Source of the DNA: a virus
Length of the DNA: 64,000 nucleotides
Virus record (IMG/VR): IMGVR_UViG_3300045988_171102
Strand: one strand, 5' to 3'
Position numbers and translations under genes: made by a program. The notes beneath the pieces were generated by a model, which made no database searches, had not been told where the DNA came from, and saw only the letters and a program-made list of their open reading frames with translations. The first letter of the stretch is position 1. Each line of letters starts with the position of its first letter. Shown one piece after another: positions 8,084 through 56,893 of this stretch.

Positions 8084-8356
8084 TTAAATCTCCCTATACA
8101 TTTTCTTTGCGGTTGGTACGCCATACTCTTGAACAAGATTCCAAAGCACATCCAACCCTTGTATATCTATATGCAAAATTTCTGTCGAATCTACAACACC
8201 TTGCAACCAAGCTTGTGCTGTTTCATCTGCAATATTCATGAATTTTCCATATATCTTTTTACCAGTATCGGATTCTAAAAGAACAGGTAAATCTTTGGAA
8301 TAAATTTCTTTCCTTGTATATGGTTGTTTCTTTATGATACTTTTTGATCTCCCCAT
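8084..8356 (-). CDS. Hypothetical protein (90 aa)
   Basis: ORF track entry; overlaps the end of the upstream gene. Confidence 0.65.
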   Translation of the reverse strand: MGRSKSIIKKQPYTRKEIYSKDLPVLLESDTGKKIYGKFMNIADETAQAWLQGVVDSTEILHIDIQGLDVLWNLVQEYGVPTAKKMYREI

Positions 8357-11316
8357 CTTATTACATAACCTTCTTCCGTTTTTTCTTTATACATGAGGTT
8401 CTGCAACATATTACTATCCACTCCAAAACGTTCATATAATTCATCGTCTGTCAAATCCTGATCCTTCATAAACAGATTTAATTTGTCTTTTACAAGAATC
8501 ATTTTTAACAGATTGCTTTCAATACTATTCTCGTAAGTTACAAAATACACTTGCTTGAATTCCGTTGAAGTATAACGAATAAAGCGGAAATAATACTGAC
8601 TCATGCTGGAGTTGTTCCAGTGCAATTCTGGAATAATACACTTATTCACAAAATCAATATTCATACTTGCAGATAAGCTCTGCTGTGTGCTTATTAGAAT
8701 TCCGTTTGTTGTTTCTTTTAACTCTTTGACAATTTTCTTTCTCTGTTTCAATGTAGTTTCATTTCCAGTAATCACAAATACAGGTCTACCCGGAAATGCT
8801 TTTTTGATTTCCTTTGCATATGCATCTACTACTGAAATATGACGCACACCAATAGCAACTCTTTCATCAGAAAATTCGTCTAAAAGTGATAATACAGTTT
8901 TGAATTTTTCCGGCATTATCGACTGATTGTACTCTCTCAACATCTGAGGCGCAGCGCAAATCTTCAAAAGTGCAAGCAACTGATTCAAAATTTTCAACAT
9001 TGCATCTTTCCGGCTGTTCCCAGTTTTCGCAAACAGATATTCCATTTTATAGAACTCATCCAATGCAACCTTATACAGACGTTTCTCTTCTTCTCCCATT
9101 TCACAAGCAATCTGTATAATCTCATAAAGCTGTTTGCCAGTAATTTCTTCAAATGTACGTGTGATAATCGTCTTATCAATCATCTGTTTCAAAATGTCTG
9201 CATTAAGAATATCTTGTGTGAACTGAGATACGCCAAATACAGTGATTTTCTCTGGAATATGACTCGCTGCAAATAACTTACTACCCTTACGATATGCTGG
9301 ATATGGCTGTAAAAAATATTCATTTATCCGGTTTTCCAGTTCTCCATCTTTGTTGCGTTCCATAATATACTCACATTCAGACAGCATATTGATAGAATTG
9401 TTGTACAATAATTCAAACTGAGGATAAATTTCAGTGATATTATTCCTTGTGCTTGTACCCGTCATCAGTGTTTTATACTTCAGCCGGCGAAAAGCATTTA
9501 ATACGGCTTTTGTCCGTTTACTATCCTGATTACTCATATTATCCGATTCGTCAAAAATCAAAACGGCTTTCTGGCAGATTGATTTTACATATCGCTTGAT
9601 GAATTTATGATATTTACACATCATATTTAAAGTGATAATTACAAATTGACCTTCTTTGATATTTTGAATATCTGCAAGGTTTCCAATCATAACAAAATCA
9701 ATACCGTACTGATCCAATACATCCTGCCAATTGTTCTTGATTGAGATTGCCGTACTCACAATAAATACATTTTTCACATGATCGTGCTGCAAACGATATT
9801 TACCTATTGCAATTCCGGCGAATGTTTTACCGCTTCCCTGTTCCCACTGTATGAAACTATATGGTTTCTGAATAAACAGATTCAGATCCGCTTTCTGAGC
9901 ATCATTCAGCTTTATAGTTCTTTCATCATCCGTCAATGTAAACTCATCAAGCCACTTTGCTATTTTTTTGTTTGGTTGCATTTCAGAAAATGGCATATTC
10001 TGGATATCATACATCTTTCGCTTTTTATTCACGATCTTATCAATCCATTTTGACTGAAAATGCCCCATTGAAAAGCCTTGCAACACAACATCGTTTATAG
10101 ATGTAAAATCGCCATTATACTCAAATGTATAATTGTTTTTAATAATTCTACCAGTTCTATCAAGTTTTGGATTCTGTGAACATAACGCCATTTTTAAATG
10201 CTTAATAACATCTTTCGGCTTGATTTTAAGTTGTTCCCATTCGTCCCATTTGATATGATCCGGTTTTTTCTGTGTCTTATACCTATTGACATATTCACAA
10301 CATTCTGCATACTGGCTGCATGTTTTCGGATTTCGTTTGATATCATACAGGAGTTTCTCAACCTTAAAACTCCACGCTTCATCGTCTTTACTATTTCTTA
10401 CGGTTTCCAGAAAAATCTTGTTTTTAATCTGTTCTCTTTCTTCTGTAATAGGCTTTAAATACTGCTCCCATACTTCATCGGAAGTAACACCGGAAAGTAT
10501 CTCTGTACTATATGGAACTTCTTTCGTATATTCAGATTTTTTCTGAAAGAACACTATTTTGGTCTTGTAGTTCTCAACGCCCAAATGCTTAAAAGTATTC
10601 TTGTCAAGTTCTACTTGGCAGATAAAATTAAAATGCTCATTCATTCCGTCAATCATGCCACCATCAGAGAAACTGTCAGCACAAAACGACATAGGCACGA
10701 TAATAGCCATAATTCCGGCTGGCTTTAACAGTTCCGCAGCTTTCAGACAATAATAATATTCTGACAAATAGTTACTGTCATCTTTTCTCCATCTCAGATT
10801 ATACGGTGGATTTCCCAGAACATAATCAAAAGTAATTTTCGGCTCATAAAAACGAATATCTGTATTTTCCAGCTTTGCATCTGGATAAAGGTATTTTGCC
10901 ACTCTGTACGGCTTCCCGTCTAATTCGCAACCGTAAAAATTCGATTCAACCGGCGCACAACTAATAAATGAACCATGTCCACAAGTAAGATCTGCTATCA
11001 AATCAGTATTTGAAATATGTAAACAATTATAAATCCATTCAACCAGCTTATAAGGTGTAAAGAACTGTCCTTGCTCAATATCTGCTTTCGCTCTCTGATA
11101 ATCATAGTAACTATCATAGTTGTTGAACTCTAAACCATGAAGCCCACCTAATCCAGTATATGCATTGAAAATATCATCTTTTGAAATACCTGTTTCTACT
11201 TCTGGCAAATCGTTATTCACAATATATTCAATTTTTGTATTGATGTCTTCCCTCATTTTCTGTGGGATTACTTCATTTGTACATTTATACTTCATGACTT
11301 GTATATCTCCATTCAA
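8332..11316 (-). CDS. N6-adenine DNA methyltransferase fused to an SNF2-family helicase (994 aa)
   Basis: Methyltransferase motif I is DLTCGHGSF and motif IV is GNPPYNLRW. Helicase Walker A is EQGSGKTF, motif II is LIFDESDN, the SNF2-type motif III is LMTGTSTRNNITEIYPQFELL, and a C-terminal helicase lobe is present. A start at 11295 (MKYK) is also possible. Confidence 0.8.
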   Translation of the reverse strand: MNGDIQVMKYKCTNEVIPQKMREDINTKIEYIVNNDLPEVETGISKDDIFNAYTGLGGLHGLEFNNYDSYYDYQRAKADIEQGQFFTPYKLVEWIYNCLHISNTDLIADLTCGHGSFISCAPVESNFYGCELDGKPYRVAKYLYPDAKLENTDIRFYEPKITFDYVLGNPPYNLRWRKDDSNYLSEYYYCLKAAELLKPAGIMAIIVPMSFCADSFSDGGMIDGMNEHFNFICQVELDKNTFKHLGVENYKTKIVFFQKKSEYTKEVPYSTEILSGVTSDEVWEQYLKPITEEREQIKNKIFLETVRNSKDDEAWSFKVEKLLYDIKRNPKTCSQYAECCEYVNRYKTQKKPDHIKWDEWEQLKIKPKDVIKHLKMALCSQNPKLDRTGRIIKNNYTFEYNGDFTSINDVVLQGFSMGHFQSKWIDKIVNKKRKMYDIQNMPFSEMQPNKKIAKWLDEFTLTDDERTIKLNDAQKADLNLFIQKPYSFIQWEQGSGKTFAGIAIGKYRLQHDHVKNVFIVSTAISIKNNWQDVLDQYGIDFVMIGNLADIQNIKEGQFVIITLNMMCKYHKFIKRYVKSICQKAVLIFDESDNMSNQDSKRTKAVLNAFRRLKYKTLMTGTSTRNNITEIYPQFELLYNNSINMLSECEYIMERNKDGELENRINEYFLQPYPAYRKGSKLFAASHIPEKITVFGVSQFTQDILNADILKQMIDKTIITRTFEEITGKQLYEIIQIACEMGEEEKRLYKVALDEFYKMEYLFAKTGNSRKDAMLKILNQLLALLKICAAPQMLREYNQSIMPEKFKTVLSLLDEFSDERVAIGVRHISVVDAYAKEIKKAFPGRPVFVITGNETTLKQRKKIVKELKETTNGILISTQQSLSASMNIDFVNKCIIPELHWNNSSMSQYYFRFIRYTSTEFKQVYFVTYENSIESNLLKMILVKDKLNLFMKDQDLTDDELYERFGVDSNMLQNLMYKEKTEEGYVIRWGDQKVS

Positions 11317-12270: not shown

Positions 12271-14100
12271 TTAAAATACAGGCTTATATGTATTGATAAT
12301 AGGTTTCAATCCTTGTTCCGCAAAGTATTCAAGTATAGCATCATACTGCTTTCTATCAAATAATGCCCATTTAGATTTTTGTGTAATACAATGTTCTTTG
12401 TATGATATATCAAACAGAACTGTATCAGGAAGGTCATACCATCCATTGTAGATGATAACATCTCCATAAAACCACTTATAATAAAGACCTTTCTTTCTAT
12501 GCGGCTTGAATGTCATTTTCACAGAATTATCATACTGTGCGTATTGCCCGATTTCGTAACTATGAAATGTTACTTTTGATACCGACATCATACCAAAGTC
12601 GCTATACTTTACGATTGTGATTCTCTGTCCTGCCTCAAGGTTTGTATTTTTGAATTGTTCCGCTATGCTGTCAACTTCTGTAAGAACCTTATACATAACC
12701 GTTTTAAGTTCGGGAATTGTAATTGCTCTGACAATGCCGGCATTCAACTTGAATTTATTTGCATAAATCCATTCTTTCATACAAGCCTTATATAAATCAA
12801 AATCTTCATCCTGCCATGTCTTTTTGATTTCATTTTGGCTGATAATCTCGGTGCTGACATCTTCAATAGTTTCTGCAAGTTCAATATTATGCTGATGTTC
12901 TTCTTCACTAATACCATAATCTGAATGGTAAGTGTCAACCTTTTGGCTCTGCTCATCGTAAACATATACATATCTTGCATAATTGTAACCCTGTGGATCA
13001 ACGATAAGTTTCAGTTCACCATCACAATATATAGCAACGCAATCAATATTGTACCACTCGACAGTTTCCCTTTCTTCTTCGGTCATCATATCGTAGTCTA
13101 TTGATGATTGGATTCTACTGTCATCTGTACGGCTTCCGCCCATTCCATCAAAGAATGAATAATCGCTCATCAACTGTTTTTCAAAAAGTGCATAGACCTC
13201 TGTGGTAAAATGTACTTCTCTGGAAACCTGACAAGTTTCTCTACACTGTTTTTCATCATAAATTTCAGTGTGGTCAAGGTTGTCATCTTTGTTAGCCTTT
13301 AGAATGGCATTCACGATAGTATAATCAACCGCTTTAATCTCTGCGTTCTTTTCAATTCTGCGGATTTTCTTCTGTCGTTCTGCTTCTGCTTTTTCATACT
13401 CCGCCTGCCTGATTTTATATTCTTCAACACCTTTTTTAATTCGTTCTTCTTCCTGCTTCTTTTGTTCGGCATCAAACTCTGATTTTTTTACAAGAAAATC
13501 TGTTTCAAGCTCTGTTTCGTTCGGTTTACATTCACGCTGATTATAGTTGTAATTTACAATGTCATTTTTATAAACGCCGTAAAAATTGACATCAAAATAA
13601 TCTGTCATGCTGTCGCTGTTGTCATAATTCCAGCTCTGCGCATATGTATAAGCATAATTAACAATAGCCTTCAAAGCCTCTGAATTCCGTGAAAATGGGC
13701 TTTCAAGCAATTCAACACGAATACTGTTATAATCACTCGTAACCGACCATTTGCACATTGAAAACCTATTCCGTAAATGTTTACGAATATTGGCAGCAAT
13801 TTCTTTTGTATTCGTTATGTGGGTTTTACCGTAATTATCTTCAATTCCTTCTGTATGTGTTAAAGACCATAAGTCAATGTTAGTTTCTGTTTTTGGCTTA
13901 TACTCAAAACTGCCTTCCGATTCTGAAATTTGATTAGCAAGAGCAACCGTGTCATCGTTTTGTTTTGCGTACCACATCCGCTGTTTTCCATTCCAACGAA
14001 ATCCCGCTTCTTTAATGGCAGTAATAACATCTGTATTCGGTTTAGTGTCAAAGCGTAATTCAATGCCGTTCTTCTCTGTATTTAATGTAATGTTTAACAT
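12271..14100 (-). CDS. Large hypothetical protein (609 aa) with a central coiled coil
   Basis: ORF track entry. The N-terminal GFRWNGKQRMWYAK motif resembles modules of polyvalent proteins from mobile elements. There is a K/E-rich coiled coil (EQKKQEEERIKKG...). Confidence 0.7.
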   Translation of the reverse strand: MLNITLNTEKNGIELRFDTKPNTDVITAIKEAGFRWNGKQRMWYAKQNDDTVALANQISESEGSFEYKPKTETNIDLWSLTHTEGIEDNYGKTHITNTKEIAANIRKHLRNRFSMCKWSVTSDYNSIRVELLESPFSRNSEALKAIVNYAYTYAQSWNYDNSDSMTDYFDVNFYGVYKNDIVNYNYNQRECKPNETELETDFLVKKSEFDAEQKKQEEERIKKGVEEYKIRQAEYEKAEAERQKKIRRIEKNAEIKAVDYTIVNAILKANKDDNLDHTEIYDEKQCRETCQVSREVHFTTEVYALFEKQLMSDYSFFDGMGGSRTDDSRIQSSIDYDMMTEEERETVEWYNIDCVAIYCDGELKLIVDPQGYNYARYVYVYDEQSQKVDTYHSDYGISEEEHQHNIELAETIEDVSTEIISQNEIKKTWQDEDFDLYKACMKEWIYANKFKLNAGIVRAITIPELKTVMYKVLTEVDSIAEQFKNTNLEAGQRITIVKYSDFGMMSVSKVTFHSYEIGQYAQYDNSVKMTFKPHRKKGLYYKWFYGDVIIYNGWYDLPDTVLFDISYKEHCITQKSKWALFDRKQYDAILEYFAEQGLKPIINTYKPVF

Positions 14101-15397: not shown

Positions 15398-15652
15398 TTA
15401 CTTACTGTAAATTAGTTTGTCGGCTATATCACGCCATTCAAAATTTATATTTAATTTTCCGTCACAAACATCCCATTGTTGTAACTCGCTGTTAAGTATT
15501 GCAGCTAAATCCGATTCCGGATTTTCGTCAACATTTTCAATTAAAGTATCAATTTTTCCATCGTAAAAATTTCCTTGTTCCTCATAGTTATAAAGTACAA
15601 TATTTTCCGTTGTTGTATCTGTTGCCATTTCTAAAAATTCTCTGATTGTCAT
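15398..15652 (-). CDS. Acidic hypothetical protein (84 aa)
   Basis: ORF track entry with an AAGGAGGAA RBS. Confidence 0.7.
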   Translation of the reverse strand: MTIREFLEMATDTTTENIVLYNYEEQGNFYDGKIDTLIENVDENPESDLAAILNSELQQWDVCDGKLNINFEWRDIADKLIYSK

Positions 15653-15680
15653 TCTATTATTCCTCCTTGTTTATGTCTGG

Positions 15681-15745
15681 GTTGCCTCATCAGGCAGTGA
15701 GCGCCCATCTCACTGCTACGGGCTTTTTCTGCCCGTTTCGCCGAT
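15681..15745 (-). ncRNA. Hammerhead-ribozyme-like motif (type II topology) in a 5' leader
   Basis: Minus strand reads CGAAAC-GGGC(AGAAAAA)GCCC-GUA-GCAGUGAG(AUGGGCG)CUCACUGC-CUGAUGAG. Core elements and stems I and III are in canonical order. Stem II is not convincingly formed. Confidence 0.35.
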
Positions 15746-15942
15746 ATTACAACGTATTTTAATTATTTTTAAAATTCTTCTTTTATAAAACAGTAAACGG
15801 AACATCAAAAATTAGCGTGTTATAAAATGCAACAATCAATCACTGTTAAAAAAGGATTTTTGCGTAGCTCATCAACAATTTTTTCATATTCTAAATGTCG
15901 TTGATATTCAGACTCATTTAAAATATGACCAAACTGCTTTAT

Positions 15943-17002: not shown

Positions 17003-17037
17003 TTAAAAAAAGAAGCTAACACACAAGTTAGCTTCTT
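17003..17037 (-). terminator. Intrinsic terminator after the 301-aa gene
   Basis: 11-bp stem AAGAAGCTAAC/GTTAGCTTCTT followed by a U-run on the minus strand. Confidence 0.65.
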
Positions 17038-17056
17038 TACAATTTAGATTATTCAA

Positions 17057-18531: not shown

Positions 18532-18560
18532 TTGACAAAGAATAAATAATAATGTATGAT
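18532..18560 (+). promoter_or_regulatory. Sigma-A type promoter of the RHH gene
   Basis: TTGACA (18532-18537), a 17-nt spacer, then TATGAT (18555-18560). Confidence 0.6.
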
Positions 18561-18651
18561 ATGTTTTAGATTTTAAACATCTTTTTTTCCTTTTTGTCTA
18601 CGACAATTATATCACAAGTTGTTACATTTTTCAAGCGTTATTTTATACAAA

Positions 18652-53863: not shown

Positions 53864-56800
53864 ATGATTATTAGACATTTAAGCATTGACTGTGCTTATA
53901 TTAATAAGGTTCTTGAACCAATCACACAAAGAGAACACGGTGTGACTGAGTTTGAAATTGAGATTAAAAATCACGGTGCTGATATCGACCTTTCAGAATG
54001 TACGCTTGCCACCTATTATGGATTAAAACCAGATGAGCATAAAGTAGGTGTTGAATGCAGAGTAGATAAAGATAAAGGTCTGATTTATTTACCTTTGTAT
54101 TTACAGATGACAACGGCTGAAGGTGTGCTAAAAGGTATTGTAGAATTACAGTTCCCTGAAGGTAATGTAAGATTTTCAGGCGTTAATTTTAAGGTTTCTT
54201 TTGCACCAGATGATACAAAGGTTGAAAGCACTGATGATTTTAATGTCTTAGAAAACTTTATCCCTAAACCGACTATAGACGGTGTTGTCGGACAGGTATT
54301 GTCTATAGACAGTGACGGTAACACTATTTGGCGAACACTTAAAGAGTTTGACGGTGATTATGCGCATTTGAGCAATAGACCTTCTATCAATGGTGTTGAA
54401 CTTAACGGAGATAAGTCGCTTGAAGATTTGAACATTAAGCAAACCTATACTGCTGATGATATTCCGTTTGCAGATGGCGAAACTTTCCAACAGAAACTCA
54501 ACAATGGTGAACTAAAAGGACAAGATGGTGTTTCGGGTACTGACGGAATTACTCCGCATATTGGTGATAACGGCAATTGGTTCATTGGCGAAACAGATAC
54601 AAATAAACCGTCCCAAGGTACAAACGGCGTGAACGGAAACGATGGTGTAGGTGTTACAAAATCCGAAGTTAATACAAGTGGAGAGCTTGTAATTACATAC
54701 TCGAATGGAGATTCAATAAATCTTGGCAAAATCGTAGGTAAAGACGGTCTTGACGGTACAAACGGACAAAACGGTTTATCAGCTTATGAAATCGCAAAAA
54801 ATGGTGGTTTTATTGGTACTGAAGAAGAATGGTTAAAATCTCTTAAAGGTGCTGACGGAGCTAAAGGCGAGCAAGGTGAACAAGGAATACAAGGTGCACA
54901 GGGTATTCAAGGCGAAAAAGGTGCACAGGGTATTCAAGGCGAAAAAGGTAAGGATGGCGCTGACGGTAAAACTCCAGTTAAAGGCACTGATTATTTTACT
55001 GCCGAAGATAAAACTGAATTTACTGCCGAAGTTGCCAAAAGTCTTGAGGGGAAAATAACGAACAAAGCTAACCTCGTTAACAGCTCGAATATCTTTGATT
55101 TTGATGCTTGGGCAAAGGAATTACAAAAACTAAATCCACCAGTTTTTCACGGTAAGCTTGATGAATTGAATTTTGACGAAAAATCAATTACCATTACCCC
55201 TACAGAAAGAGACACTTATACGAATGGTTGGCAATTAAATTACACCAAAGTAATGAAAATAAGTGTAAAACCGAATACTAAATATTTGATTTGTTGGCTT
55301 ACAAATAACAGTAGCAGCAATGTTGTTTGTTTTTTTAACGGAATCACTACCAATAATGTAACAATTCGGGGTGGTAAAGGAACATTTGTCACAAACAATG
55401 ATACATCATTTATAACGCTTAGGTGTGGTAGCTATAGTAATAGTACTTTCAAGGTTTCCAAAATTATGATTACCGAAAAAGAATCAATCTATTTACCAAA
55501 TAAAGTTGCAGAAGGTGTCCCAGAGGTTGCAAACGAAGTTTTGACATTTAAAAAGACAACCCAAGAGGTTGAGGACATTAAGGCATATATAGGTTACACC
55601 GATGATGACATAGTAGGACTTTGTGTTGACTACGAGAACAAGACATTCACTCGACTTGCTGGTGCAGTCGGACTGTCACAGGGAGCAGACTTTGATAAAT
55701 TCACAATGTACGGCGGAAGAAAACGCTGTAATGTGTTGGACGACGGAACTATCGTGGCATACTACGGCGACGAAGGTTACACAGAGGACGGCTCCAACGG
55801 GCAGGTTATGGTTTTTCAGCCGAAATTCTATTATAAAGTTGTTCCACTCAAATTAGAAAAAAACAACGATTCAAGCATCGGCTATCATCTAAGAAAAGTG
55901 AACTATTATGTAAGCTCGAAACCCAAAACAGGCTTTAAGTTGCACCCTGCATTCTTTGATGAAAACGGCAATGCGGTTGATTATATTCTATTTTCAGCTG
56001 ATGAGGGCAGTATGTTTGATGTTTCCGCAGGAGCTTATGTTAATGATAATGTTGATGAGTCTATCACTTACGAGGACGGTGATTTACTTTGCTCGGTTGC
56101 GGGGAAGAAATCTATCAGTGGCTTAAGAAAAGGACTTGGAACTAAGTCAAACCTTGAACAAATGGCACAAAACCGTGGTTCAGGCTGGCACTTGGAAACT
56201 ATTAAGGCAACAAGTGCAAATCAACTTCTGATGATTATTGAACTCGGCACTATGAACTCGCAGACAGGCATCGGTCAGGGTATTGTCAGCATCACCGATA
56301 ACAAGGCATATAACTGTTCAAGTTTGACAGGTTCAACCGCTGAACTTGGTAACAGCACAGGTCAGGCAACTGAAACCGTTAATGAAATAGGCGGTACGGA
56401 AACAACCTACAATGTAAACGGTAAAGTTTCCGTTACATATCGTGGCGTTGAAAATCCTTACGGTAACATCTTTAAGCACATTCAAGGTGTGAATGTTTGG
56501 GGCGACGGCTCTATGTGTGGCGGTCAGCCCTATGTTGCAAATAATTTCACATTCAATGAATCGAAAAACTCTGATAATTATGAAGGAGTTGGATTTACGC
56601 TTCCCAATGCAAATGGTTACATAAATGCAATGGGTTACGGCAAAGAAGAATATGACTGGCTTTTACTGCCTTCGGAAATTGGTGGCACATCTGCACTTCC
56701 TGTTGGTGATTTCTTCTATGTTACATCAGATTTGAACGATTACCGCATCGTACTTGGGGGCGGTAGTTGGAATTATGGTAGTTTTGATGGTAGTTTCTTT

Positions 56801-56881
56801 GGGCGTTGTGGCTACAATGTCGGTTCTCGTGACAGAAGCGCTGGCGGTCGCTTACTGTATGTGCCAACTGCCAAAGTATAA
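53864..56881 (+). CDS. Tail fibre with collagen-like Gly-X-Y repeats (1005 aa)
   Basis: Contains GADGAKGEQGEQGIQGAQGIQGEKGAQGIQGEKGKDGADGKT and several shorter G-X-Y runs. Confidence 0.75.
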   Translation: MIIRHLSIDCAYINKVLEPITQREHGVTEFEIEIKNHGADIDLSECTLATYYGLKPDEHKVGVECRVDKDKGLIYLPLYLQMTTAEGVLKGIVELQFPEGNVRFSGVNFKVSFAPDDTKVESTDDFNVLENFIPKPTIDGVVGQVLSIDSDGNTIWRTLKEFDGDYAHLSNRPSINGVELNGDKSLEDLNIKQTYTADDIPFADGETFQQKLNNGELKGQDGVSGTDGITPHIGDNGNWFIGETDTNKPSQGTNGVNGNDGVGVTKSEVNTSGELVITYSNGDSINLGKIVGKDGLDGTNGQNGLSAYEIAKNGGFIGTEEEWLKSLKGADGAKGEQGEQGIQGAQGIQGEKGAQGIQGEKGKDGADGKTPVKGTDYFTAEDKTEFTAEVAKSLEGKITNKANLVNSSNIFDFDAWAKELQKLNPPVFHGKLDELNFDEKSITITPTERDTYTNGWQLNYTKVMKISVKPNTKYLICWLTNNSSSNVVCFFNGITTNNVTIRGGKGTFVTNNDTSFITLRCGSYSNSTFKVSKIMITEKESIYLPNKVAEGVPEVANEVLTFKKTTQEVEDIKAYIGYTDDDIVGLCVDYENKTFTRLAGAVGLSQGADFDKFTMYGGRKRCNVLDDGTIVAYYGDEGYTEDGSNGQVMVFQPKFYYKVVPLKLEKNNDSSIGYHLRKVNYYVSSKPKTGFKLHPAFFDENGNAVDYILFSADEGSMFDVSAGAYVNDNVDESITYEDGDLLCSVAGKKSISGLRKGLGTKSNLEQMAQNRGSGWHLETIKATSANQLLMIIELGTMNSQTGIGQGIVSITDNKAYNCSSLTGSTAELGNSTGQATETVNEIGGTETTYNVNGKVSVTYRGVENPYGNIFKHIQGVNVWGDGSMCGGQPYVANNFTFNESKNSDNYEGVGFTLPNANGYINAMGYGKEEYDWLLLPSEIGGTSALPVGDFFYVTSDLNDYRIVLGGGSWNYGSFDGSFFGRCGYNVGSRDRSAGGRLLYVPTAKV
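54893..54946 (+). repeat. Perfect 27-bp tandem duplication inside the collagen-like segment
   Basis: GGTGCACAGGGTATTCAAGGCGAAAAA occurs twice, at 54893-54919 and 54920-54946. Confidence 0.85.
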
Positions 56882-56893
56882 GGAGGAATAGTT

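What the first reader, a model, noticed from the sequence alone, without database searches (positions are those of the whole stretch)
15681..15751. Hammerhead-ribozyme-like motif (type II arrangement) in the leader of an early gene
On the minus strand the sequence reads CGGC-GAAA-C GGGC AGAAAAA GCCC G-UA-GCAGUGAG AUGGGCG CUCACUGC-CUGAUGAG-GCAACCCAGAC, followed 20 nt later by the RBS of the 84-aa gene. This contains both invariant hammerhead cores (CUGAUGA and GAAA) in the correct circular order. Stem III is perfect at 6 bp and ends in the A15.1:U16.1 pair with a GUA cleavage triplet. Stem I is perfect at 8 bp. The G10.1/C11.1 pair is also present (CUGAUGA-G ... C-GAAA). Loop I UGGG could pair with CCCA just 3' of the core, giving a possible tertiary pseudoknot. 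The weak point is stem II: beyond G10.1:C11.1 I cannot draw a convincing helix (GGC opposite GGC). In addition, an extended -10 element (TGTAATAT, 15744-15751) might start transcription inside the motif. Hammerheads, including type II, are known in prophages of Firmicutes, so the context is plausible. If active, cleavage would fall between plus-strand positions 15717 and 15716 and would separate upstream RNA from the downstream cistrons.
Basis: partly seen in the sequence, partly recalled or inferred. Interest (0 to 1): 0.7.

Follow-up and report, generated by a model that had tools for sequence, protein, structure and literature searches.

The report
Type II hammerhead ribozyme, weakened allele
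The motif is a genuine relative of the known type II hammerhead self-cutting RNAs that sit between genes in phages, but this copy has a damaged short helix (stem II), so whether it still cuts itself is uncertain.

Summary
Window 15676-15743 (minus strand) matches Rfam Hammerhead_II end to end. It scores 36.3 bits against a curated cut-off of 37, with E 1e-3 for the whole window. It is the only such match and the strongest G+C island in 64 kb.

All core nucleotides are present: a 6-bp stem III, the GUA cleavage site, an 8-bp stem I, and a 4-bp pseudoknot between loop I and the 3' tail.

In related human-gut prophage contigs, the slot in front of the same 84-aa gene holds this hammerhead (four alleles), a pistol ribozyme (55-57 bits), or nothing. 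Twister-P5 and further pistols lie in neighbouring gene gaps. This is the known pattern of interchangeable self-cleaving ribozymes between phage genes, so it is a new member of a known kind.

Caveat: in 24 of 27 family members stem II is GCC:GGC. The window's allele group has G instead of C at position 11.2. Nearest-neighbour folding also favours a competing pairing that buries CUGAU by about 9 kcal/mol, against about 1 for intact relatives. I put activity of this copy at roughly 50%.

Inferred role: cutting the leftward mRNA between 15717 and 15716, which leaves hairpin-capped ends.

The parts
15676..15743 (-). Whole hammerhead type II element (extent of the Rfam RF02276 match)
   Evidence: 36.3 bits, model positions 1-66 of 66, E 1.1e-3 for the window; top G+C island of the window.
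15740..15743 (-). 5' strand of stem II, CGGC (11.4-11.1). C11.1 is 15740. G11.2 (15741) is the deviant base; intact relatives have C here.
   Evidence: at 10.2:11.2, 24 of 27 family members pair (23 G:C, 1 G-U), and only the window, L001 and L009 types have G-G.
15737..15739 (-). Core G12 A13 A14
15718..15736 (-). Stem III hairpin: A15.1-C-G-G-G-C / loop AGAAAAA / G-C-C-C-G-U16.1 (6 bp)
   Evidence: Family-level covariation.
15716..15717 (-). Predicted cleavage site: after A17 (15717) of GUA and before G1.1 (15716)
   Evidence: Position follows from the alignment to the hammerhead consensus. Cleavage itself was not tested.
15694..15716 (-). Stem I hairpin: GCAGUGAG / loop AUGGGCG / CUCACUGC (8 bp)
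15704..15707 (-). Pseudoknot 5' strand, UGGG in loop I
   Evidence: duplex with the tail, -6.0 kcal/mol; the pseudoknot is a family feature, mean best pairing 4.2 bp against 3.2 in shuffles.
15687..15693 (-). Core C3 U4 G5 A6 U7 G8 A9
   Evidence: Position 7 is U or C among the alleles, the one core position known to be free.
15684..15686 (-). 3' strand of stem II, GGC (10.1-10.3)
15678..15681 (-). Pseudoknot 3' strand, CCCA in the 3' tail
15662..15668 (-). Ribosome-binding site AAGGAGG of the downstream gene
15398..15652 (-). Downstream 84-aa gene. It is acidic (19 D/E against 6 K/R), belongs to no known family, and is the anchor of the conserved slot.
15741..15753 (-). 5' flank that is predicted to pair with the core and the stem II 3' strand: AUCGG with CUGAU, and GUUGU with GCAAC. 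This would be a competing inactive fold.

Best explanation
This is a type II hammerhead self-cleaving ribozyme of the pseudoknot-stabilised kind common in phages. It lies on the sense strand of the leftward (probably early) operon of a large temperate phage of a low-G+C human-gut bacterium, 10 nt upstream of the ribosome-binding site of an 84-aa gene.

Inferred mechanism: when the long transcript folds, the RNA cuts itself after GUA, between 15717 and 15716. The upstream RNA then ends in the stem III hairpin with a 2',3'-cyclic phosphate. The downstream RNA begins, with a 5'-OH, directly at the 8-bp stem I hairpin, followed by the RBS. This separates the fates of the upstream RNA and the downstream cistrons (84-aa gene, LPD29 protein, methylase-helicase), both in stability and in translation.

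What is shown: homology, architecture, strand, and the fact that other ribozyme classes occupy the same slot in relatives.

What is inferred: cleavage in this copy and its consequences. This allele has a G-G mismatch in the middle of the 3-bp stem II and a flank that can pair with the core, so I expect it to be slower than its intact sister allele, or only partly active.
For: - Full-length Rfam Hammerhead_II match: 36.3 bits, E 1.2e-5 locally and 1.1e-3 window-wide.
- All invariant core bases are present, together with A15.1:U16.1, G10.1:C11.1, GUA, a 6-bp stem III, an 8-bp stem I and a 4-bp pseudoknot.
- Perreault et al. 2011 (PMC3088659) define type II hammerheads by this topology and by the loop I/3'-tail pseudoknot. 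They report stem II of two base pairs as common. [quoted passage not shown]
- The slot is a ribozyme slot. Upstream of the orthologous gene (88-100% identical protein), relatives carry the intact allele with GCC:GGC stem II (36.6 bits in L007 and L010; 37.5 bits in L093, which passes the cut-off) or a pistol ribozyme (54.8-57.1 bits; cut-off 34.5). Twister-P5 and a second pistol lie in adjacent gaps, all on the sense strand.
- A wider set of 27 distinct hammerheads from viral contigs shares the frame AGCC-GAAAC...GUA...CUGAYGA-GGC-A-pseudoknot. Stems I and III show 2-6 (mostly 4-6) canonical pair types at each variable position and at least 85% pairing in the core-proximal positions. Pseudoknot pairing exceeds all 1000 shuffles.
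- Members sit between a stop codon and the next RBS.
- The literature places hammerhead, twister and pistol near phage genes and proposes processing of polycistronic mRNA.
Against: - The score is 0.7 bit below Rfam's cut-off.
- Stem II is G:C, G-G, C:G, or two contiguous pairs if the first G after A9 is bulged, which is how cmscan aligns it. Only this lineage (window, L001 and L009 types) lacks the GCC strand, 3 of 27.
- In nearest-neighbour folding without the pseudoknot, the hammerhead-competent fold is 8.7 kcal/mol above the minimum for the window. It is 1.1 above for the intact L007 allele and 0.9 above for a canonical relative. The 4-bp pseudoknot (-6.0 kcal/mol) may not make up the difference.
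- Sister alleles with the same flank carry more defects: a bulge in stem I, wobble or broken pseudoknot pairs, and G-U at 10.1:11.1. They score 30.8 bits or nothing. They diverge about as fast as flanking non-coding DNA while the gene stays identical: 9 of 68 positions in the element against 0 of 255 in the gene.
- Some relatives have no ribozyme in the slot, so it is dispensable.
- No transcript or cleavage data exist.
Confidence: 0.55

Rival explanations
1. Relic hammerhead. The element descends from an active type II hammerhead, but this lineage lost the 5' strand of stem II when the upstream module was exchanged. It no longer cleaves at a useful rate. It persists because it is young and harmless, or because its two G+C-rich hairpins still help mRNA stability.
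For: - Homology with the intact allele ends just 5' of C11.1, within the 5' strand of stem II.
- G-G at 10.2:11.2 occurs in this lineage only.
- The energy penalty for the active fold is +8.7 to +13.3 kcal/mol in this lineage, against about +1 in intact relatives.
- Defects rise and scores fall across the sister alleles: 36.3 bits, then 30.8, then no hit.
- Pseudoknot energy weakens in step: -6.0, -4.2 and -2.4 kcal/mol, against -9.7 in the intact allele.
- The element diverges 9 of 68 positions while the adjacent gene is 0 of 255 different.
- Ribozyme-free relatives exist.
Against: - In the window allele every invariant core base, both capped stems and a G+C-rich 4-bp pseudoknot are intact.
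- Active natural type II hammerheads with one- or two-pair stem II are documented.
- The energy model ignores the pseudoknot and core tertiary contacts.
- No substitution among the alleles hits the 12 unpaired invariant core positions, although about 1.4 hits were expected and the probability of none is about 0.2 (my estimate from the allele differences listed).
- The window allele recurs unchanged in at least three other samples with different upstream genes.
Confidence: 0.38
2. The element is not a catalytic RNA in practice. Either the two hairpins act only as a stability or processing determinant, or a promoter in or just before the motif (TTAAAA-17-TAATAT, or TTTATA-16-AATAAT at 15789-15762) starts the mRNA so that the hammerhead is incomplete or sits at the extreme 5' end.
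For: - Promoter-like hexamers lie next to and inside the 5' flank (and direct reading).
- In the window, 200 nt of non-coding DNA separates the element from the previous ORF.
Against: - Promoter-like sites in this A+T-rich region are fewer than in shuffles: 36 against 45.9.
- The candidate -10 is absent from the intact allele's flank.
- This reading does not explain full-length similarity to the hammerhead model or the presence of pistol ribozymes in the same slot.
- There is no U-run after either hairpin, so the element is not an intrinsic terminator.
Confidence: 0.05
3. Chance resemblance to the hammerhead consensus.
For: The score is just under Rfam's curated threshold.
Against: - E is 1.1e-3 for the window.
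- 0 of 100 shuffles contain the core pattern.
- The element is conserved in many independent contigs at the same place.
- An intact sister allele passes the threshold.
- Other ribozyme classes occupy the same slot.
Confidence: 0.02

Closest known systems
Rfam RF02276 Hammerhead_II: type II hammerheads with a loop I/3'-tail pseudoknot (Perreault et al. 2011, PMC3088659)
   Same: - Same circular permutation, with stems I and III capped and stem II open.
- Same invariant core and an NUH cleavage site (GUA).
- Short stem II.
- A Watson-Crick pseudoknot of 4 bp between loop I and the tail directly after stem II.
- Location among small phage or prophage genes.
   Different: - It scores 0.7 bit under the curated threshold.
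- The middle pair of the family's 3-bp stem II is a G-G mismatch.
- The flank can pair with the core.
- Activity is untested.
Multiple hammerheads flanking genes in prophages, such as the three hammerheads in Agrobacterium tumefaciens and the hammerhead directly upstream of ardA in Legionella (Perreault et al. 2011)
   Same: - An intercistronic position on the sense strand in a block of small genes.
- Anti-restriction-type genes downstream. Here these are a DarB-like methylase-helicase and an LPD29 protein.
   Different: Only one ribozyme is detectable in this window's operon, although relatives have up to three within 3 kb. The gene directly downstream is an uncharacterised acidic 84-aa protein, not ArdA.
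Pistol (RF02679) and twister-P5 (RF02684) ribozymes, which were found through their association with the same phage genes as hammerheads (Weinberg et al. 2015, as summarised in PMC4604425 and PMC4604424)
   Same: They occupy the same slot, or neighbouring slots, in relatives of this phage, on the same strand, just upstream of the same gene. This argues that self-cleavage is the selected activity of the slot.
   Different: The folds and catalytic cores are unrelated, so the equivalence is functional rather than by homology.
glmS ribozyme of Bacillus (from my own knowledge: Collins et al. 2007 showed that the 5'-OH product is degraded by RNase J1)
   Same: It is a self-cleaving RNA in a 5' leader of a Firmicutes mRNA, and its 5'-OH product determines the fate of the mRNA.
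   Different: glmS is ligand-dependent and destabilises the downstream mRNA. Here no ligand is implied. The downstream product would start directly with an 8-bp hairpin, which would be expected to protect it rather than expose it (inference).

Membership tests
Hammerhead ribozyme, type II (RF02276) | Invariant core: C3 U4 G5 A6 N7 G8 A9 on one strand and G12 A13 A14 on the other | tested here: met
   CUGAUGA at 15693-15687 and GAA at 15739-15737. Among the alleles only N7 varies, as U or C.
Hammerhead ribozyme, type II (RF02276) | A15.1:U16.1 pair closing stem III, and an NUH cleavage triplet | tested here: met
   A15736 pairs with U15718. GUA lies at 15719-15717.
Hammerhead ribozyme, type II (RF02276) | G10.1:C11.1 pair | tested here: met
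   G15686 pairs with C15740.
Hammerhead ribozyme, type II (RF02276) | Type II topology: stems I and III closed by loops, with the 5' and 3' ends in stem II | tested here: met
   The order is 5' stem II strand, GAAA, stem III hairpin, GUA, stem I hairpin, CUGAUGA, 3' stem II strand.
Hammerhead ribozyme, type II (RF02276) | A stem II helix (usually at least 2 bp; 3 bp GCC:GGC in the closest sub-family) | tested here: inconclusive
   The window has G:C, G-G, C:G, or 2 contiguous pairs with a bulged G. At 10.2:11.2, 24 of 27 relatives pair (23 G:C, 1 G-U). The literature accepts 1-2 bp in active members.
Hammerhead ribozyme, type II (RF02276) | Pseudoknot of about 4 or more bp between loop I and the tail immediately 3' of stem II | tested here: met
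   UGGG (15707-15704) pairs with CCCA (15681-15678), -6.0 kcal/mol. The family-wide signal exceeds the shuffles.
Hammerhead ribozyme, type II (RF02276) | Operational criterion: covariance-model score at or above Rfam's gathering score of 37 bits | tested here: inconclusive
   The window scores 36.3 bits, 0.7 bit short, with E 1.1e-3 window-wide. The sister allele in L093 scores 37.5 and canonical relatives 42-53. This is a curation cut-off, not a biological feature.
Hammerhead ribozyme, type II (RF02276) | Structure supported by covariation among homologues | tested here: inconclusive
   At family level it is supported: 2-6 (mostly 4-6) canonical pair types at each variable position in stems I and III. 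Within the window's own clade there are only four near-identical alleles. Their changes are wobble-compatible or disruptive, none is compensatory, and none hits the unpaired core.
Hammerhead ribozyme, type II (RF02276) | Site-specific Mg-dependent self-cleavage giving 2',3'-cyclic phosphate and 5'-OH ends | not testable with these tools
   This needs in vitro transcription and cleavage assays, or RNA end mapping.

The most novel reading that the evidence does not exclude
The space in front of this gene is a hot-swappable ribozyme socket. It also acts as a recombination joint of the prophage's early gene block. Hammerhead, pistol or nothing alternate before an otherwise identical gene, and mosaic break-points fall at or within a few nucleotides of both edges of the hammerhead. 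In the wider family the upstream stop codon abuts the first base of stem II. On this reading the short conserved ribozymes would be the linkers at which gene cassettes are shuffled between phages, and the window's broken stem II would be a scar of such an exchange. Translation termination on the abutting stop codon could additionally gate ribozyme folding.
Probability: 0.15. Interest if true: 0.6.

Novelty: new member of a known kind. Interest (0 to 1): 0.35.

Why it matters
The biological role of self-cleaving ribozymes in bacteria and phages is still an open question (reviews read). This locus does not answer it, but it offers a clean natural test set:

- The same 84-aa gene, identical down to the nucleotide in some contigs, is preceded by an intact hammerhead, by three progressively damaged hammerhead alleles, by a pistol ribozyme, or by no ribozyme.
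- Comparing mRNA ends, half-lives and translation across these variants would show directly what intercistronic cleavage does for the phage.
- The graded alleles would also show how much stem II and pseudoknot a type II hammerhead needs in vivo.

In itself the element is an ordinary member of a well-described class in its usual context.

Tried and rejected
- No similar DNA or protein was found in GenBank phages for the region or the 84-aa gene. Only distant SPbeta-like homologues (SPR phage and Bacillus phage EZ-2018a, 32-35% identity) matched the downstream 609-aa protein.
- The exact 21-mer of the window allele is absent from IMG/VR. The allele was later found in ENA assemblies.
- The MAFFT alignment of the family put GUA and the stems out of register. 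I dropped the covariance-model route and counted pairs by numbering outward from the core instead.
- An alternative stem II (G10.1:C11.1, an 8-nt bulge, then GUUGU:GCAAC) is compatible with all allele differences. The energy model does not prefer it, and the changes are transitions that wobble pairing would tolerate by chance, so I rejected it as evidence.
- A predicted long-range pairing of UCCUUUUU (15856-15849) with the Shine-Dalgarno sequence would make cleavage a translational switch. The segment is absent from the L001 and L007 types, so this is probably chance.
- The promoter scan was uninformative, with fewer hits than in shuffles.
- There are no further ribozymes in the window at E up to 1 and no tRNAs.
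- The weak Corona_pk3, snoRNA and miRNA hits are noise.

Full report
**1. The observation**

On the minus strand, window 15743-15676 reads:

CGGC GAA ACGGGC AGAAAAA GCCCGU A GCAGUGAG AUGGGCG CUCACUGC CUGAUGA GGC AA CCCA GA

It is followed by GACAUAAAC in part, then the RBS AAGGAGG (15668-15662) and the AUG of an 84-aa ORF at 15652.
- both conserved core strands;
- a 6-bp stem III ending in A15.1:U16.1;
- a GUA triplet, which puts the scissile bond between 15717 and 15716;
- a perfect 8-bp stem I;
- G10.1:C11.1;
- UGGG in loop I, complementary to CCCA just after stem II.

The weak stem II is equally real.

**2. More than chance**

- A default Rfam scan at gathering thresholds finds nothing in the window.
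- At E-value thresholds the only credible hit in 64 kb is Hammerhead_II (RF02276) at 15676-15743 on the minus strand. It covers the full model, positions 1-66 of 66, at 36.3 bits against a gathering score of 37. E is 1.2e-5 in a 701-nt search and 1.1e-3 for the whole window.
- cmscan treats the first G after CUGAUGA as an insertion. That gives a two-pair stem II (G:C, C:G).
- The bare pattern GAAAC-N14-20-GTA-N20-27-CTGAYGAG occurs once in the window and in none of 100 shuffles.
- The element is the highest 60-nt G+C peak in the window, 0.62 against a mean of 0.32.
- RNAfold recovers both hairpins. The z-score is -2.8 for 81 nt.

**3. Context**

The window is a tailed phage. Terminase, portal, tape-measure and tail genes lie on the plus strand from about 21 kb onward. 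A divergent minus-strand block of small genes runs from about 18.6 kb leftwards.

Downstream of the hammerhead in that block are:
- a 609-aa LPD29/DUF5710 protein with SPbeta-like homologues (SPR phage and Bacillus phage EZ-2018a, 32-35% identity);
- a 994-aa N6-methylase plus helicase fusion with a DarB-like anti-restriction match.

The exact 84-aa protein is recorded in 312 collection blocks. Its contigs reach 0.26-0.45 Mb and one reaches 1.58 Mb (NCBI assembly GCA_041404445.1). The named samples are human-gut metagenomes, so this is a widespread prophage of a gut bacterium. No relative is in GenBank phages or in the GTDB species representatives.

**4. The slot in relatives: the key result**

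Fourteen IMG/VR loci encode the 84-aa protein at 88-100% identity. Directly upstream of the gene, on the sense strand, they carry one of three things.

(a) The same hammerhead, in four alleles:
- window type, 36.3 bits;
- L001 type, 30.8 bits;
- L009 type, no hit at E up to 1;
- L007 type, 36.6 bits. The same L007-type hammerhead in L093 scores 37.5 and passes the cut-off.

(b) A pistol ribozyme in L008 and L011-L013, at 54.8-57.1 bits against a cut-off of 34.5.

(c) No ribozyme but a small ORF, in L003-L006 and in the NCBI genome copy L143.

L011-L013 also carry a twister-P5 ribozyme (50-54 bits) within the 3 kb upstream, L013 has a second full-length pistol (62.4 bits) and L012 a truncated pistol hit. 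Each full-length element lies in an intercistronic gap.

Three unrelated self-cleaving folds in equivalent positions argue strongly that self-cleavage is what the slot is for. This is the association that led to the discovery of pistol, hatchet and twister-sister. It also matches the reported habit of hammerheads to flank small prophage genes, including an anti-restriction gene.

**5. The wider family**

A degenerate core pattern recovered 112 stretches in IMG/VR. After filtering, and together with the window clade, these give 27 distinct type II hammerheads. They share the frame (U)AGCC-GAAAC-stem III-GUA-stem I-CUGAYGA-GGC-A-pseudoknot.

- Counting pairs outward from the core, stems I and III show 2-6 (mostly 4-6) canonical pair types at each variable position, with at least 85% canonical pairs in the core-proximal positions.
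- The best loop I/tail pairing averages 4.2 bp. It averages 3.2 bp in shuffles, and no shuffle mean among 1000 exceeded 3.74.
- Canonical members score 42-53 bits with Rfam, and several contigs carry two to four copies.
- They sit tightly between genes. The upstream ORF's stop codon abuts or overlaps the first base of stem II (UAG-CC or UAA-GCC; median distance -1 nt). The next start codon follows a median of 30 nt after GGCA.

**6. What is wrong with this copy**

- In 24 of 27 family members stem II forms three pairs, GGC with GCC (or GUC in one). The only sequences with G-G at 10.2:11.2 are the window, L001 and L009 types.
- Homology between the window and the intact L007 allele runs from C11.1 through the gene and stops there. 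The 5' flanks are unrelated (AAUAUCGG against GGAGAAAGC). The 5' strand of stem II therefore seems to have been lost in a module exchange.
- The new flank can pair with the core. In the minimum-energy fold, AUCGG (15745-15741) pairs with CUGAU and GUUGU (15753-15749) pairs with GCAAC.
- Without the pseudoknot, the hammerhead-competent fold lies 8.7 kcal/mol above the minimum for the window. The figures are 10.0 for L001, 13.3 for L009, 1.1 for L007 and 0.9 for a canonical relative.
- The window's 4-bp pseudoknot is worth about -6.0 kcal/mol, against -9.7 for the 5-bp one of L007.
- Sister alleles with the same flank have further defects: a one-base deletion in stem I, CC to UU in the pseudoknot, G to A in loop I, and C11.1 to U.
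- Contigs whose gene is identical to the window's (0 of 255 nt different) differ at 9 of 68 positions in the element. That is about the divergence of the adjacent non-coding flank.
- None of these changes hits the 12 unpaired invariant bases. With about 8 events that is not significant, with a probability near 0.2.

Against a pessimistic reading:
- Perreault et al. measured fast cleavage in a natural type II hammerhead with a single-pair stem II and a pseudoknot, and they call two-pair stems II common.
- The window allele keeps a perfect stem I, a perfect stem III and a G+C-rich pseudoknot.
- It recurs unchanged in at least three other samples with different upstream genes.

**7. Mechanism**

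Shown: the element is on the coding strand, 10 nt before the RBS, in a slot used by ribozymes.

Inferred: transcription of the leftward block produces a polycistronic RNA. One candidate start is the near-consensus promoter at 18634-18606. A terminator-like hairpin at 17038-17009 and weaker promoter-like sites leave the actual start open.

The hammerhead would then cut after A15717. The type II layout means that both products end in hairpins:
- the upstream RNA ends in stem III plus a 2',3'-cyclic phosphate;
- the downstream RNA begins at the first base of stem I with a 5'-OH.

From general knowledge of Firmicutes mRNA decay, 3' exonucleases are blocked by 3' hairpins and RNase J is hindered by 5'-terminal hairpins. 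Cleavage would therefore uncouple, and probably stabilise, the two halves and define the 5' end of the mRNA for the 84-aa gene and the anti-restriction-like genes behind it. This is the polycistron-processing idea already in the literature. It is not demonstrated for any phage, nor here.

**8. Rivals**

- The main rival is that this allele is a relic that no longer cleaves (section 6).
- Non-catalytic roles or an internal promoter have little support. The best -35/-10 pairing is 8 of 12. Promoter-like sites are not enriched.
- Chance is excluded by the comparative data.

**9. Comparison and novelty**

The element belongs with RF02276-type hammerheads by core, topology, pseudoknot and context. 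Stem II and the 0.7-bit shortfall are the open points, and catalysis is untested. The class, its phage association and the interchangeability with pistol and twister are all published, so this is a new member of a known kind.

Three things are mildly new:
- the clean orthologous-slot replacement, with hammerhead alleles, pistol or nothing before an identical gene;
- the coincidence of mosaic junctions with both edges of the hammerhead. L093 and L134 share the hammerhead with L007 but have a different gene right after the pseudoknot, and the window differs from L007 just 5' of C11.1;
- the stop-codon abutment in the family.

**10. Verdict**

- I put identity as a type II hammerhead homologue at about 0.95.
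- I put useful self-cleavage by this particular copy at about 0.5-0.55.
- Interest is moderate to low at 0.35. Its value is as a natural allele series for testing what phage ribozymes do.

Noticed in passing
L008 1581-1653; L011 and L012 2864-2936 and 1660-1722; L013 808-875, 2098-2158 and 2864-2936: Relatives of this prophage carry pistol ribozymes (55-62 bits) and twister-P5 ribozymes (50-54 bits) in successive intercistronic gaps of the same small-gene block. One pistol sits in the exact slot that holds the hammerhead in the window.
   Followed up: partly
IMG/VR loci L015-L126 (for example L026 4646-4706, L063 2091-2153, L125 7932-7994 on the minus strand): In the wider type II hammerhead family the stop codon of the upstream ORF abuts or overlaps the first base of stem II (UAG-CC or UAA-GCC; median distance -1 nt). 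The next start codon follows a median of 30 nt after GGCA. A terminating ribosome would therefore cover the 5' half of the ribozyme. Many members are close relatives, so independence is limited.
   Followed up: partly
window 15740-15743 against L007; L093 and L134 right after the pseudoknot CCCA; L136 against the window: Mosaic break-points fall at both edges of the hammerhead. The upstream flank is unrelated from just 5' of C11.1. In L093 and L134 a different gene follows the same hammerhead. In L136 the gene is 0 of 255 nt different from the window while the hammerhead differs at 9 of 68 positions.
   Followed up: partly
window 15874-15938 (minus strand): A long A+U-rich imperfect hairpin (about 8 + 14 bp) starts 4 nt after the stop of the 85-aa ORF. 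It lies in the 290-nt non-coding gap that also holds the hammerhead. The whole gap folds with a z-score of -4.2. Its function is unknown and it is not followed directly by a U-run.
   Followed up: no
window 15849-15856 and 15661-15668 (minus strand): Both the minimum-energy and centroid folds of the gap pair UCCUUUUU with the Shine-Dalgarno AAGGAGGA of the 84-aa gene. Hammerhead cleavage would separate the two strands. The upstream segment is shared with the L009 type but absent from the L001 and L007 types, so this is probably chance.
   Followed up: partly
window 8332-11316 and 12271-14100 (minus strand): Downstream in the same block lie a 994-aa N6-methylase plus DEAD-type helicase fusion (end-to-end match to phrog_24008, with a DarB-like anti-restriction match) and a 609-aa LPD29/DUF5710 protein with SPbeta-like homologues (SPR phage and Bacillus phage EZ-2018a). 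Both resemble polyvalent or anti-restriction proteins. Flanking genes of other family hammerheads include DUF2786/DUF7168, DUF932 and a DnaJ-like protein.
   Followed up: partly
window 15398-15652 (minus strand): The 84-aa protein behind the ribozyme is strongly acidic (19 D/E against 6 K/R). It has no Pfam or PHROG family. Its exact sequence is recorded in 312 collection blocks.
   Followed up: no
L143 (NCBI GCA_041404445.1, contig JBGKOU010000002.1, 1.58 Mb) and L136-L144: The gene lies on contigs of 0.26-1.58 Mb, so the phage is an integrated prophage. The copy in the NCBI genome has no ribozyme in the slot. The host could not be named with the tools at hand.
   Followed up: partly
window 18606-18634 (minus strand), 18532-18560 (plus strand) and 17009-17038 (minus strand): Near-consensus divergent promoters (TTGAAA-17-TATAAT with TG, and TTGACA-17-TATGAT) lie at the boundary between the leftward and rightward blocks. 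A 12-bp terminator-like hairpin with a U-run follows the 301-aa gene, upstream of the hammerhead.
   Followed up: no
window 55627-56888 (plus strand): Several of the window's other G+C-rich patches lie inside the 1005-aa tail protein, which also gives collagen-like and tail-fibre matches.
   Followed up: no
L093 10554-10959; L128 11198-11424: Related contigs carry a cluster of tRNA genes a few kilobases from the hammerhead slot. The window itself has none.
   Followed up: no
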